A stretch of DNA of 64,000 nt from Escherichia coli (lineage in GTDB: Bacteria > Pseudomonadota > Gammaproteobacteria > Enterobacterales > Enterobacteriaceae), in the NCBI RefSeq assembly GCF_003334305.1, contig NZ_QOWS01000010.1; one strand, given 5' to 3'. This document shows positions 12,001 through 15,000 of the stretch, piece by piece. A program made the position numbers. Each line of letters begins with the position of its first letter. Position 1 is the stretch's first letter.

Positions 12001-15000
12001 GTCGCCGTGCTGATAGAACCCGCCGGCCAAACAATCGCGGCAACAGACAGGATGACCAGCGCGATAATTTTCAGCGGCGCAAGGAAGTTGCCCACGGTAT
12101 CCAGCAGCTTGCCCGGATAGAGCGAAACCAGAATAACGATAGCGAAATAGACCAGGCTGTAGATAAACAGCGGCAGCGCGGAATCACCAGTCAGCGGCGC
12201 AATCCCCACTTCAAAGGAAACGGTAGCTGTACGCGGCGTAGCGAAAAGCGGCCCCACCGCCAGGTAACAAACCGTTGCCAGCAGCACGCCAGCGACTTTA
12301 CCGATTGGCGTGCTGAGGCTGTCAACACCGCCGCCAACTTTTGCCAGCGCCACTACCGTTAATACCGGCAGGCCAACGGCAGTAATGAGGAAGCCGAATG
12401 CCGCAGTCCAGACGTGTTCGCCTGCCTGCAAGCCGACCATTGGAGGGAAAATAATGTTACCTGCGCCGACGAACAACGCAAATGTCATAAAGCCCAGAGC
12501 GATGATATCGCGCGATCTTAATTGATGGGTCATAAATCATACTGCCTGTGGATGTGGTGTTGTAACGTTAAATTTTTGTGCCAATCCCTGGGGATGATAC
12601 AGCGGTATATTTAAACAATTTTAGCGGGAAATACTCCCAACCAGGCGCGGCGAAGAATAGTTTTTCGATTTACCGCGTTAATGCAGTCAGTATGACAGCA
12701 CCTGAAGCGCAATTTAAACGCTTATAACGTTTTAAAGCAAGGAGGGATCTAAAAACCAGAGGTATATAGCGATAAGAAATCACCAACCAGTATAAAACAC
12801 TATTTCCGTGAAAAAGACATGGCTAATCATGCGAACAAAAAATCACCAACCGTTGTAAAATCTAACGCCCGTATTTTGACTGCAAAGAAAATAAGCCAGC
12901 ATCGGCTGGCTTATGGCAATAAAAGATGACAAAGGCGGATTAATCGCTGTTTTTGGCAATTAAACGTTCCGGGATAACAAAACTGAAACGTGTTCCTTTT
13001 CCTACTGTACTCTCAATATTCAGGCGACTTTCGTGATGATTCACAGCATGTTTCACGATCGCTAACCCTAATCCGCTACCGCCGGTTTGCCGGGAACGCG
13101 CTTTATCAACGCGATAAAAACGCTCGGTCAGGCGCGGAATATGCTCCGCTGCAATGCCCGGTCCGTTATCTTCAACGCTAAATTCGGCACCGTGCGGCAC
13201 TCGCTGCCAGCGTACGGTGATATGCGTGCCTTCTGGAGTATGATTCACGGCGTTATAGACCAGGTTCGAAATCGCACTGCGTAGCTGATCTTCGTTGCCA
13301 GACACTTTGAGGCCGTTATCTATCTCAAAGGTAAATGTCTGTTTTTTCTGACTCAGAGTCTGAGCCTCACGCTCAACAACGCGCAGCATCATCGGCACAT
13401 CAACCTTTTCATTGAGCAAATGCGTCGGTGCGGCTTCTATTTTCGACAGCGTCAGCAACTGCTTCACCAGCCCTTCCATCCGCTGGGTCTGCTCGCGCAT
13501 GGTGTGCAACGCTTTTTCGCGTACCGCGCCTTCCAGCGGCTGCTCATCCATCATCTCCAGGTAACCCTGTAACACGGTCAATGGCGTACGTAACTCATGG
13601 CTCACGTTGGCAAAAAAGTTACGCCGCGCCCCTTCCAGTTGATGCATTTGCGTGACATCACGCGCCACCATCAGCAACTGTTTGTGGGTATAAGGCATGA
13701 CGCGAATTTCCAGATGCCGCCCGGTGTTGAGCACCAGATTGAGCGGGCGAGAAAAATCACGCGTTTTCAGATATTGCGTAAACTCCGGGTAACGCAGCAG
13801 GTTAAGGATGTTCTGCCCGTTATCTTCCGGCCAGCGCAAACCAAGAATCTGTTGCGCCAGACCGTTACACCAGAAAATACCGCCCTCTTCCGTGGTCAGC
13901 ACCACTGCGTCGGGCAGCGACTCCGCGCCGCTACGAAAGCGTTTAATCAGATTGCCCAGTTCACGGCGGCGTTTTTTATTTCGCAGCTGCATCTGGTGTA
14001 AGCCGTATAGTAGCGGTTCCCAGCTACCACGCCCCGGTGGCGGGGTCATACTACGATCCACCCACAGCCACCATGAAAGGCGCAATAAATTCCAGAAATG
14101 CCAGATAAGCAGTCCCGTTACCGATGCCAGCAAAAACCAGGGCAGGTAACCAAAAAATGCACCCAGGATGAAAGCCGGGAGGCAGCAAAGTAACAGCTCC
14201 AGCACCAGCCTTTTCCACGACAGCCGTTCCAGCACGTAAGATACTCCAGTTAAGAAATCATAAGCCCTGCTCTGCGTCCGATGAGCAAGGCGTTAAAAGC
14301 GGGTTGAAAAACGATATCCTGTACCGCGCACGGTCTGCACCATGCGGTCATGCCCGCCGGGCTCCAGTGCTTTACGCAGGCGACGAATGTGGACATCGAC
14401 CGTGCGGTCTTCCACATACACGTTAGTTCCCCAGACGTGGTTTAACAGCTGCTCGCGGCTGTACACGCGCTCAGGATGCGTCATAAAAAAGTGCAGCAGT
14501 TTAAATTCTGTCGGCCCCATCTCCAGCGGCTCTTCGCCCGCCATCACCCGGTGAGATGTCGGGTCGAGACTTAATCCCTGCATCTCAATCACCTCTTCCA
14601 CCGCCATTGGCGAAATACGGCGCATTACCGCTTTGATTCGCGCCACCAGCTCCTTCGGCGAAAACGGCTTGGTGATATAGTCATCCGCGCCGGTTTCAAG
14701 GCCGCGCACGCGATCTTCTTCTTCCCCTCTGGCGGTCAACATCACCACTGGAATATCCCGGGTCATCGACTCGCGCTTGAGGTGTTTGATGAACTGGATA
14801 CCGGAGCCGCCAGGTAACATCCAGTCAAGGAGAATTAAATCCGGCCAGGGTTCATTCAGTTGATTCACAGCACTGTCATAATCTTCCGCTTCGACCGGCT
14901 GAAAGCCATTTTGTTCGAGCACGAAGCAGACCATTTCGCGAATTGGAGCTTCATCTTCTACGACCAGAATACGTCTCGCCATGATTTGCCCTGTTGTAAT

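What the first reader, a model, noticed from the sequence alone, without database searches (positions are those of the whole stretch)
12777..12862. Direct repeat AAATCACCAACC in the brnQ upstream region
Two copies of aaatcaccaacc, each followed by a similar (a/g)tt/ta-gtaaaa tail (12778-12799 and 12840-12861), lie about 62 bp apart in the 400-bp region upstream of brnQ, next to the phoR terminator hairpin. Such spaced direct repeats are typical binding sites for a dimeric or oligomeric regulator (Lrp is an obvious candidate for a branched-chain amino acid transporter, but that is inference).
Basis: seen in the sequence. Interest (0 to 1): 0.3.

Follow-up and report, generated by a model that had tools for sequence, protein, structure and literature searches.

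The report
Short repeat in brnQ's Lrp-bound upstream region
The repeated 12-mer upstream of the E. coli leucine/isoleucine/valine transporter gene brnQ is real, but it looks like a young, Escherichia-only similarity between two segments of a control region already known to bind the regulator Lrp, not a regulator's recognition sequence.

Summary
AAATCACCAACC occurs twice (12777-12788 and 12840-12851), extends to 20 of 24 matches, and the copies start 63 bp apart. It is the best local direct repeat in the 64-kb window, though only modestly beyond chance once the whole window is counted (p about 0.05).

The window is E. coli, with phoR, a 406-bp spacer and brnQ on the minus strand. A published start-site map puts the brnQ transcription start at 12703, so the copies lie at -71..-96 and -134..-159.

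A published in vitro Lrp genomic SELEX-chip peak maps to about 12814, between the copies. Lrp-consensus-like sites fall on a lattice of about 32 bp (-27, -61, -92, -124, -157, -188), and the stronger ones hold their positions across 71 Enterobacteriaceae species.

The AT-rich tails of the repeats coincide with the -92 and -157 sites. The identical 12-mer cores sit in the linkers, do not resemble the Lrp consensus, and are the fastest-changing part within Escherichia. They are absent outside Escherichia and Citrobacter.

One E. coli strain has lost exactly one 63-bp unit, and some lineages show the same substitution in both copies. This suggests slippage or gene conversion.

Verdict: an ordinary Lrp-bound promoter region. 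The Lrp guess is partly right. The 12-mer as an operator is not supported.

The parts
12837..12860 (.). Repeat copy A (next to phoR), -134..-157 from the brnQ start site. The exact 12-mer core is 12840-12851; in gene orientation it reads GGTTGGTGATTT.
   Evidence: position relative to the start site
12774..12797 (.). Repeat copy B (next to the promoter), -71..-94 from the start site. The exact 12-mer core is 12777-12788.
12788..12802 (-). Best Lrp-consensus match, TAGTGTTTTATACTG (2 mismatches to YAGHAWATTWTDCTR), centred at -92. It overlaps the tail of copy B.
   Evidence: 96% of 71 species have a site with at most 5 mismatches here, and 37% one with at most 3.
12853..12867 (-). Weak Lrp-like site (4 mismatches) centred at -157. 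It overlaps the tail of copy A.
   Evidence: 51% of species have a site with at most 5 mismatches here.
12820..12834 (+). Lrp-like site (4 mismatches) centred at -124, inside conserved block I (TTTTTTGTTCGCATGATTAGCCATG, 12817-12841).
   Evidence: block identity 0.87; 85% of species at up to 5 mismatches
12757..12771 (-). Lattice position -61. It is weak in E. coli (5 mismatches), but 75% of the 71 species (E. coli included in the count) have a site with at most 3 mismatches here.
12703..12740 (-). brnQ core promoter: -35 TTGCTT (12740-12735), -10 TTAAAT (12717-12712), transcription start at 12703, giving a 170-nt 5' UTR.
   Evidence: Kim et al. 2012 start-site table (PMC3415461 supplement); the orthologous Klebsiella start site has the same promoter; near-invariant in 71 species
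12891..12914 (-). phoR terminator-like hairpin: 10-bp stem, 4-nt loop, followed by a T-rich tail.
12777..12839 (.). The 63-bp unit missing in E. coli strain A39. The deletion is placed by the 12-mer repeat and leaves a single hybrid copy.
11214..12533 (-). brnQ coding sequence (439 aa).
12940..14235 (-). phoR coding sequence (431 aa).

Best explanation
The two copies are two segments of the Lrp-bound upstream control region of the brnQ promoter, two array periods apart (63 = 2 x about 31.5 bp). Lrp, an octamer or hexadecamer that binds several weak sites about three helical turns apart, most likely occupies a phased set of sites from about -27 to about -157. The AT-rich tails of the repeat (TTTTATACTG and TTTTACAACG in gene orientation) belong to the sites at -92 and -157.

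The perfectly repeated 12-mer cores lie in the linkers between sites and are not what the protein reads. Their identity is a recent, Escherichia-specific feature. It probably arose, and is kept up, by replication slippage or short-patch gene conversion between two already similar units. The same process produced the 63-bp deletion seen in one strain.

Shown: the repeat; its position relative to a published start site; a published in vitro Lrp peak at about 100-bp resolution; the 32-bp lattice of consensus-like matches and its positional conservation; the poor conservation of the cores; the deletion allele.

Inferred: that Lrp contacts these particular 15-mers; that the linkers are not read; that conversion or slippage homogenises the copies; the direction of regulation.
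For: The brnQ start site is at window 12703, with an orthologous start site in Klebsiella. The Lrp SELEX-chip peak at 418534 maps to about window 12814, between the copies.

The Lrp consensus match with 2 mismatches at 12788-12802 overlaps the tail of copy B. E. coli sites with at most 5 mismatches fall at -27, -61, -92, -124, -157 and -188.

The periodic statistic is 11 against 5.5 +/- 1.4 in shuffles (p=0.002), and the region is in the top 0.24% of 225-nt windows of the 64 kb. The signal is specific to periods of 30-34 bp under 9 parameter settings, while control periods of 20-29 and 36-45 give p of 0.17-0.98.

The same period and phase appear in 53 of 71 species at p<=0.05. Lrp-like sites are positionally conserved at -61, -92, -124 and -157. 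As a positive control, the livK upstream region scores 19 at period 32 (0 of 500 shuffles).

The cores change faster than their surroundings. The identity between copies A and B falls from 20/24 in E. coli to 17/24 in other Escherichia, 11-14 in Citrobacter and about 9 elsewhere.

The spacer length is constant at about 405-412 bp across genera. Strain A39 has an exact 63-bp deletion. The same substitution in both copies occurs in about 146 genomes, and there are further homogenising changes.

Published descriptions of Lrp binding report a degenerate CAG-N9-CTG consensus, a G-N2-3-TTT motif, cooperative binding of four or more dimers and wrapping of the DNA (PMC6640053).
Against: The Lrp consensus is degenerate. 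It gives 100 matches in the window against 77.5 expected, and the total Lrp-like score in the region is not enriched (13 against 16.7 in shuffles). Only its arrangement is unusual, and I designed the periodicity test after seeing the pattern.

The species are related and the alignment has almost no indels, so the cross-species agreement is not independent evidence for periodicity. SELEX-chip is in vitro with 105-bp probe spacing. The in vivo ChIP papers (Cho 2008, Kroner 2019) were not held, so in vivo binding and Lrp dependence of brnQ transcription are unverified here.

The -157 and -124 sites have 4 mismatches, and the -61 site is weak in E. coli itself. The control promoters livJ and ilvIH do not score clearly. 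The case for concerted evolution rests on a handful of substitutions, some of which go the other way (K-12, UTI89).
Confidence: 0.55

Rival explanations
1. The 12-mer (GGTTGGTGATTT in gene orientation) is itself the operator half-site of a regulator, either Lrp or an unidentified protein. Two protomers bind the two copies on the same face of the helix (63 bp = 6 turns) and loop or bridge the DNA to control brnQ.
For: The exact repeat is beyond chance within the spacer. The 63-bp spacing is an integer number of helical turns. Each core contains the low-information pap-type Lrp motif G-N3-TTT. The same substitution in both copies in one lineage, and other homogenising changes, could mean the two sites must stay alike. 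The two-copy arrangement is kept in 5424 of 5425 genomes.
Against: The cores are the least conserved part of the region within Escherichia (p=0.012). The 12-mer is not recognisable beyond Escherichia, although Citrobacter keeps partial similarity between the 24-nt units (11-14 of 24), while neighbouring blocks stay invariant in 71 species. There is no match to the Lrp or CRP consensus. No further copies exist in the 64 kb or in the livK, livJ or ilvIH control regions. K-12 itself has an imperfect copy. A conserved protein gives no reason for both sites to mutate in parallel.
Confidence: 0.15
2. Pure coincidence. Two AT/GT-rich stretches of a fast-evolving spacer happen to match in E. coli. There is no function and no homogenising mechanism.
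For: Over the whole window the repeat is only borderline (5% of shuffles reach 20/24; 33% give an exact local 12-mer pair). A second unrelated local 12-mer pair exists at 39579/39663. Identity decays quickly with phylogenetic distance.
Against: Identity of 17/24 is already present in three other Escherichia species and 13-14/24 in some Citrobacter, against about 9 elsewhere. Two substitutions on the E. coli branch both moved copy A towards copy B, and there are later parallel or homogenising changes. The spacing equals two periods of the Lrp-like lattice.
Confidence: 0.2
3. Remnant of a 63-bp tandem duplication of upstream DNA in the Escherichia lineage.
For: The direct repeats have a fixed 63-bp register. 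Weak similarity extends to about 35 nt (23/36). A 63-bp deletion allele exists.
Against: The spacer is 406 bp in E. coli and 404-414 bp in most other genera that lack the repeat, so no 63 bp were added. Both units align column for column with single-copy orthologous sequence in those genera. The sequence between the copies (block I) is ancient and has no counterpart one period away.
Confidence: 0.03
4. The repeats belong to a transcribed element: an antisense small ORF (12819-12929, MANHANKK...) or a small RNA.
For: A 36-codon plus-strand ORF starts inside conserved block I and runs through copy A.
Against: In the orthologues the ORF is 8 to over 50 codons long, its start codon is lost in several genera, and only the first 8 codons are conserved. 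There is no Rfam match and no promoter-like site. Both copies lie upstream of the mapped start site and downstream of the phoR terminator.
Confidence: 0.02

Closest known systems
Phased multi-site Lrp operators (ilvIH, livKHMGF, pap, artPIQM)
   Same: Several degenerate AT-rich sites of the CAG-N9-CTG type lie about 31-33 bp apart upstream of, and overlapping, a sigma-70 promoter of a branched-chain amino-acid gene. There is a published in vitro Lrp peak on the region. The same 32-bp best period is found upstream of livK.
   Different: No footprint or mutational data exist for brnQ. Most sites are weak (4-5 mismatches). A 12-bp exact repeat occupies two of the linkers, which is not a described feature of Lrp operators.
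Short direct repeats as substrates for replication slippage, deletion and short-patch conversion
   Same: There is a precise deletion of one repeat unit in a natural isolate (A39). Some lineages carry identical substitutions at homologous positions of both copies.
   Different: Only one deletion allele was found in 5425 genomes, and no expansion alleles were seen. Conversion is inferred from a few substitutions and was not demonstrated.
Response-regulator direct-repeat operators (for example the Pho box of the neighbouring PhoB)
   Same: The sequence is directly repeated and lies upstream of a promoter, next to phoBR.
   Different: Pho-type boxes are 7-bp repeats at 11-bp spacing. Here the spacing is 63 bp and the sequence is unrelated.

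Membership tests
Lrp-regulated promoter with a phased array of Lrp sites | Lrp binds the DNA region | tested here: met
   Literature look-up only. The Lrp genomic SELEX-chip peak at 418534 in the phoR>brnQ spacer maps to about window 12814 (PMC5320599 supplement). It is in vitro, with 105-bp probe spacing. The in vivo ChIP papers were not held.
Lrp-regulated promoter with a phased array of Lrp sites | Sequence matches to the Lrp consensus (YAGHAWATTWTDCTR / CAG-N9-CTG) | tested here: inconclusive
   There is one 2-mismatch site at 12788-12802; the others have 4-5 mismatches. The consensus is weakly specific (100 hits against 77.5 expected). Positional conservation at -61, -92 and -124 in 85-100% of 71 species supports it.
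Lrp-regulated promoter with a phased array of Lrp sites | Several sites about three helical turns (30-33 bp) apart | tested here: met
   The sites are spaced 34, 31, 32, 33 and 31 bp. The periodic statistic gives p=0.002 against shuffles, is specific to periods of 30-34 bp, and shows the same period and phase in 53 of 71 species. The test was designed after the pattern was seen.
Lrp-regulated promoter with a phased array of Lrp sites | brnQ transcription changes in an lrp mutant or with leucine | not testable with these tools
   No open paper with brnQ-specific expression data was found.
Specific operator made of the 12-mer AAATCACCAACC | Purifying selection on the motif in related species | tested here: not met
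   Core positions changed 11/72 against 30/489 for the rest of the upstream region in Escherichia (p=0.012). Identity across 71 species is 0.45 (copy B core) and 0.69 (copy A core) against 0.87-0.88 for the conserved blocks.
Specific operator made of the 12-mer AAATCACCAACC | Motif recurs at other promoters of the same regulon | tested here: inconclusive
   There are no other copies with at most 1 mismatch in the 64 kb, and none with at most 2 mismatches in the livK, livJ or ilvIH control regions. The whole genome could not be scanned.
Tandem duplication | Extra length relative to orthologous spacers that lack the repeat | tested here: not met
   The spacer is 406 bp in E. coli and 404-414 bp in most other genera.
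Dispersed repeat or mobile element (REP/BIME, IS end) | Many copies per genome | tested here: not met
   There is one place per genome in 5425 E. coli genomes for the 111-nt region, and the 12-mer is found only here in the window.
Known RNA family | Match to an Rfam covariance model | tested here: not met
   The only hit is a chance-level tmRNA fragment (7.5 bits against a gathering score of 47, E=1.2), and it lies outside the repeats.

The most novel reading that the evidence does not exclude
The two 12-mers are kept identical by selection rather than by neutral slippage. They could be paired sites for an unidentified factor. Alternatively they could be a built-in recombination register that lets the Lrp array shrink or grow by exactly two periods (63 bp) without losing helical phase, giving heritable variants of brnQ expression such as the A39 allele.
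Probability: 0.06. Interest if true: 0.4.

Novelty: already known. Interest (0 to 1): 0.15.

Why it matters
It matters little beyond this locus. The work gives a base-level, testable layout for how Lrp may sit on the brnQ promoter: sites at about -61, -92, -124 and -157 on a 32-bp lattice. It also warns that the most eye-catching repeat in a control region need not be the protein's recognition sequence. The natural 63-bp deletion allele (strain A39) and the lineage with the same change in both copies are ready-made material for testing whether such short repeats homogenise by slippage, and whether removing two array periods changes brnQ expression.

Tried and rejected
Rfam scan of 12300-13200: nothing relevant.

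Sigma-70 consensus scan: no promoter-like site, and it missed even the real, weak brnQ promoter.

CRP consensus: no site with at most 3 mismatches in the upstream region, despite a published in silico CRP prediction for brnQ.

Antisense small ORF MANHANKK... (12819-12929): not conserved as a protein.

Tandem-duplication origin: rejected because the spacer length is constant.

The 12-mer as a shared regulon motif: absent from livK, livJ and ilvIH.

Literature: string search for the 12-mer, block I and the promoter palindrome returned only unrelated eukaryotic papers. Cho 2008, Kroner 2019 and Thomason 2015 are not held. Several BCAA-transport and Lrp papers held no brnQ-specific regulation data. 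One paper search failed for lack of a slot.

Salmonella was not among the 80 loci returned, so the species in which GcvB-brnQ was verified was not compared.

By eye I also considered TyrR, PurR/Cra-type, GcvA, Pho-box, IHF and sigma-54 resemblances. None was convincing and none was tested with a matrix.
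Full report
WHAT THE WINDOW IS. The 651 nt around the finding are 100% identical to an E. coli chromosome and are present in 5425 of 5426 complete E. coli genomes. On the minus strand the order is phoB (14293-14982), phoR (12940-14235), a 406-bp spacer (12534-12939) and brnQ (11214-12533). K-12 MG1655 annotates nothing in the spacer.

THE OBSERVATION. It is correct. The repeat finder gives a 24-nt direct repeat, 12774-12797 against 12837-12860, with 20/24 identical and starts 63 bp apart. The exact 12-mer lies at 12777-12788 and 12840-12851 and nowhere else in the 64 kb, even with one mismatch allowed. The phoR terminator-like hairpin is at 12891-12914.

Within the spacer the repeat is unlikely by chance: an exact 12-mer in 0.8% of shuffles and 20/24 in 0.1%. 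Over the whole window the significance is modest: 5% of shuffles reach 20/24 at a distance of up to 100 bp, and 33% give some exact local 12-mer pair. It is nevertheless the best local direct repeat in the window.

POSITION RELATIVE TO THE PROMOTER. The genome-wide start-site table of Kim et al. 2012 lists one brnQ start site 170 nt upstream of the ATG, with the upstream sequence ...TTGCTTTAAAACGTTATAAGCGTTTAAATTGCGCTTCA (PMC3415461 supplement). That is window 12703, with -35 TTGCTT (12740-12735) and -10 TTAAAT (12717-12712). The same table gives an orthologous start site and promoter in Klebsiella pneumoniae.

Copy B is therefore at -71..-94 and copy A at -134..-157. Both are upstream of the core promoter and downstream of the phoR terminator, so a DNA-level role is the natural reading and an RNA-level role is unlikely. 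Rfam finds nothing.

COMPARATIVE EVIDENCE. I fetched 80 orthologous loci from Enterobacteriaceae, one per species. The phoR-brnQ spacer is strikingly constant in length, 404-414 bp in most genera, so 71 of them, with E. coli included as the reference row, align almost without gaps.

Conservation is very uneven:
- The core promoter block 12704-12760 has 0.88 identity to E. coli.
- Block I, TTTTTTGTTCGCATGATTAGCCATG (12817-12841), has 0.87.
- A CA-rich stretch just before the ATG is nearly invariant.
- The copy A core has 0.69, which is the spacer average, and much of that comes from the T-run it shares with block I.
- The copy B core has 0.45.

Within the genus Escherichia the 12-mer cores are the most variable part of the upstream region: 11/72 positions changed against 30/489 elsewhere (Fisher p=0.012). 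In gene orientation, copy A reads GAATGGTGATTT, GTCTGGTGATTT, GATTGGTGGTTT and GTCTGCTGATTT in four other Escherichia species. Copy B reads GATTGATGATTT, GGTTGATTATTT, GGATGATGTTTT and GGTTGGTGATTT.

The identity between the two 24-nt units is 20 in E. coli, 17 in three other Escherichia species, 11-14 in Citrobacter and about 9 (chance level) elsewhere. So the repeat is young and lineage-specific. Because the spacer length did not grow, it is not a tandem duplication.

LRP. The Lrp genomic SELEX-chip of Shimada et al. 2015 lists a binding peak at 418534 in the phoR>brnQ spacer, with brnQ-proY as the predicted target (PMC5320599 supplement). In those coordinates the brnQ ATG is at 418815, so the peak maps to about window 12814, or -111. 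That lies between the two copies, whose midpoint is about 12817. The probes are 60-mers every 105 bp, so this localises binding only to about 100 bp either way.

Scanning with the SELEX consensus YAGHAWATTWTDCTR gives one good match in the upstream region: TAGTGTTTTATACTG at 12788-12802 (2 mismatches, centred at -92). It is the tail of copy B plus the next few bases. Relaxing to 5 mismatches gives sites centred at -27, -61, -92, -124, -157 and -188, plus one off-lattice site at -138. Six of the seven are spaced 31-34 bp apart.

I built a statistic that sums the site scores falling on a lattice of period 30-34 bp. It gives 11 against 5.5 +/- 1.4 in dinucleotide shuffles (p=0.002), and the region is in the top 0.24% of 225-nt windows of the 64 kb. 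The total Lrp-like score is not enriched (13 against 16.7). What is unusual is the arrangement.

The signal survives nine combinations of cut-off and tolerance (from 0 of 500 shuffles to p=0.07). It is absent for control period ranges of 20-24, 25-29, 36-40 and 41-45 bp (p=0.17-0.98). In the orthologues the same period (31-32) and phase recur, with p<=0.05 in 53 of 71 species.

Lrp-like sites hold their positions across species:
- -61: 100% of species have a site with at most 5 mismatches, and 75% one with at most 3.
- -92: 96% and 37%.
- -124: 85% with at most 5 mismatches.
- -157: 51% with at most 5 mismatches.

As a positive control, the livK upstream region scores 19 at period 32 (0 of 500 shuffles). 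ilvIH scores 10 at period 32 (p=0.07), and livJ is not significant.

The geometry fits published descriptions of Lrp: a degenerate CAG-N9(AT-rich)-CTG site, cooperative binding of four or more dimers, and DNA wrapped on an octamer (PMC6640053). That adjacent Lrp sites sit about three helical turns apart, as at ilvIH and pap, is from my own knowledge.

Caveats: I designed the periodicity test after seeing the pattern, the consensus is weak (100 hits against 77.5 expected in the window), and the species are not independent.

HOW THE REPEAT FITS. On this lattice the repeat tails are parts of the -92 and -157 sites. The 12-mer cores (-74..-85 and -137..-148) occupy the linkers between sites -61 and -92 and between sites -124 and -157. 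The 63-bp spacing is two lattice periods.

The cores do not resemble the Lrp consensus, and no CRP-like site is present. They are not found, at up to 2 mismatches, in the livK, livJ or ilvIH control regions.

POPULATION VARIATION AND A MECHANISM FOR THE IDENTITY. In 5425 E. coli genomes the 111-nt region is at least 99% identical in 4048 and 95-99% in 1377. Sampled variants show the following:
- K-12 carries C to T at 12850, so copy A is 11/12.
- A haplotype in about 146 genomes, including strain 042, has the same A-to-G change at position 6 of both 12-mers (12782 and 12845) plus one further change.
- The strain AGR4587 haplotype (L084) has G to A at 12852, which extends the exact match between the copies to 13 nt.
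- On the E. coli branch, copy A changed at two positions (GTCTGG to GGTTGG), both towards the sequence of copy B.
- In E. albertii, position 2 is a derived A in both copies.
- Other changes diverge (K-12; UTI89 at 12793).

Strain A39 lacks exactly 63 bp (12777-12839), leaving one hybrid copy. It is the only genome of 5425 with this allele. This is the classic product of slippage between short direct repeats. It removes two lattice periods, so it keeps the upstream sites in phase.

Together these observations suggest that misalignment between the two units occurs and may homogenise them. With so few events this remains an inference.

REJECTED ALTERNATIVES. A plus-strand ORF (12819-12929, MANHANKK...) begins in block I. 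In the orthologues it is 8 to over 50 codons long and loses its start codon in several genera. The tandem-duplication, mobile-repeat and known-RNA readings fail their defining tests.

VERDICT. The repeat is real, and the Lrp guess is right at the level of the region, where Lrp binding was already published. The 12-mer is most likely an incidental, recently homogenised linker sequence inside a phased Lrp-type array. It is probably not an operator. The case is ordinary and of low interest. The site-level layout and the natural deletion allele give simple experiments.

Noticed in passing
window 12705-12760 (minus strand): The brnQ core promoter block is almost invariant in 71 Enterobacteriaceae species, far more than a sigma-70 promoter needs. 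The spacer between -35 and -10 is filled by an imperfect palindrome, TTTAAAACG-TTATAA-GCGTTTAAA, and a conserved GATC sits at 12749-12746 just upstream of the -35. The binding partner is unknown. Only a 5-mismatch Lrp-like match is centred at -27.
   Followed up: partly
window 12817-12841 (minus strand): Conserved block I, TTTTTTGTTCGCATGATTAGCCATG (0.87 identity over 71 species), lies between the two repeat copies. It is the best-conserved element upstream of the promoter. It holds only a 4-mismatch Lrp-like site (-124), so another factor is possible. It is deleted in strain A39.
   Followed up: partly
window 12540-12562 (minus strand): An invariant CA-rich stretch, ACAACACCACATCCACAGGCAG, lies just 5' of the brnQ start codon in the 170-nt 5' UTR. 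It fits a target site for the GU-rich R1 region of the small RNA GcvB. brnQ is listed as a GcvB target verified in Salmonella and conserved in E. coli (PMC9299463).
   Followed up: partly
L086 (E. coli A39, NZ_CP028737.1), corresponding to window 12777-12839: A natural 63-bp deletion lies exactly between the two 12-mers, making the spacer 343 bp instead of 406. It is the only such genome among 5425.
   Followed up: yes
L085 (isolate CB7453), corresponding to window 12782 and 12845: The same A-to-G substitution occurs at the homologous position of both repeat copies. The haplotype is shared by about 146 complete genomes, including strain 042. This hints at gene conversion or parallel mutation.
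   Followed up: partly
L004 1354-2100 (Escherichia sp. MOD1-EC7003): The spacer is 1147 bp because a roughly 740-bp array of about six REP/BIME-like units is inserted between the phoR stop and copy A. The array shows up as a spurious repetitive 232-aa ORF with the recurring motif MRRERLIRPTKHA.
   Followed up: partly
window 12676-12693 (minus strand): CTGTCATACTGACTGCAT at +11..+28 of the brnQ transcript has a good first Pho-box half (CTGTCAT) but a poor second half. It is probably noise, and is noted only because phoBR is the upstream operon.
   Followed up: no
window 39579 and 39663: This is the only other exact local 12-mer direct repeat in the window: GCAACATCACCC, with copies 84 bp apart.
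   Followed up: no
L062, L079, L081 (Intestinirhabdus, Cedecea colo, Buttiauxella agrestis): The phoR-brnQ spacers are enlarged to 569-655 bp, against about 410 bp elsewhere. The inserted DNA was not examined.
   Followed up: no
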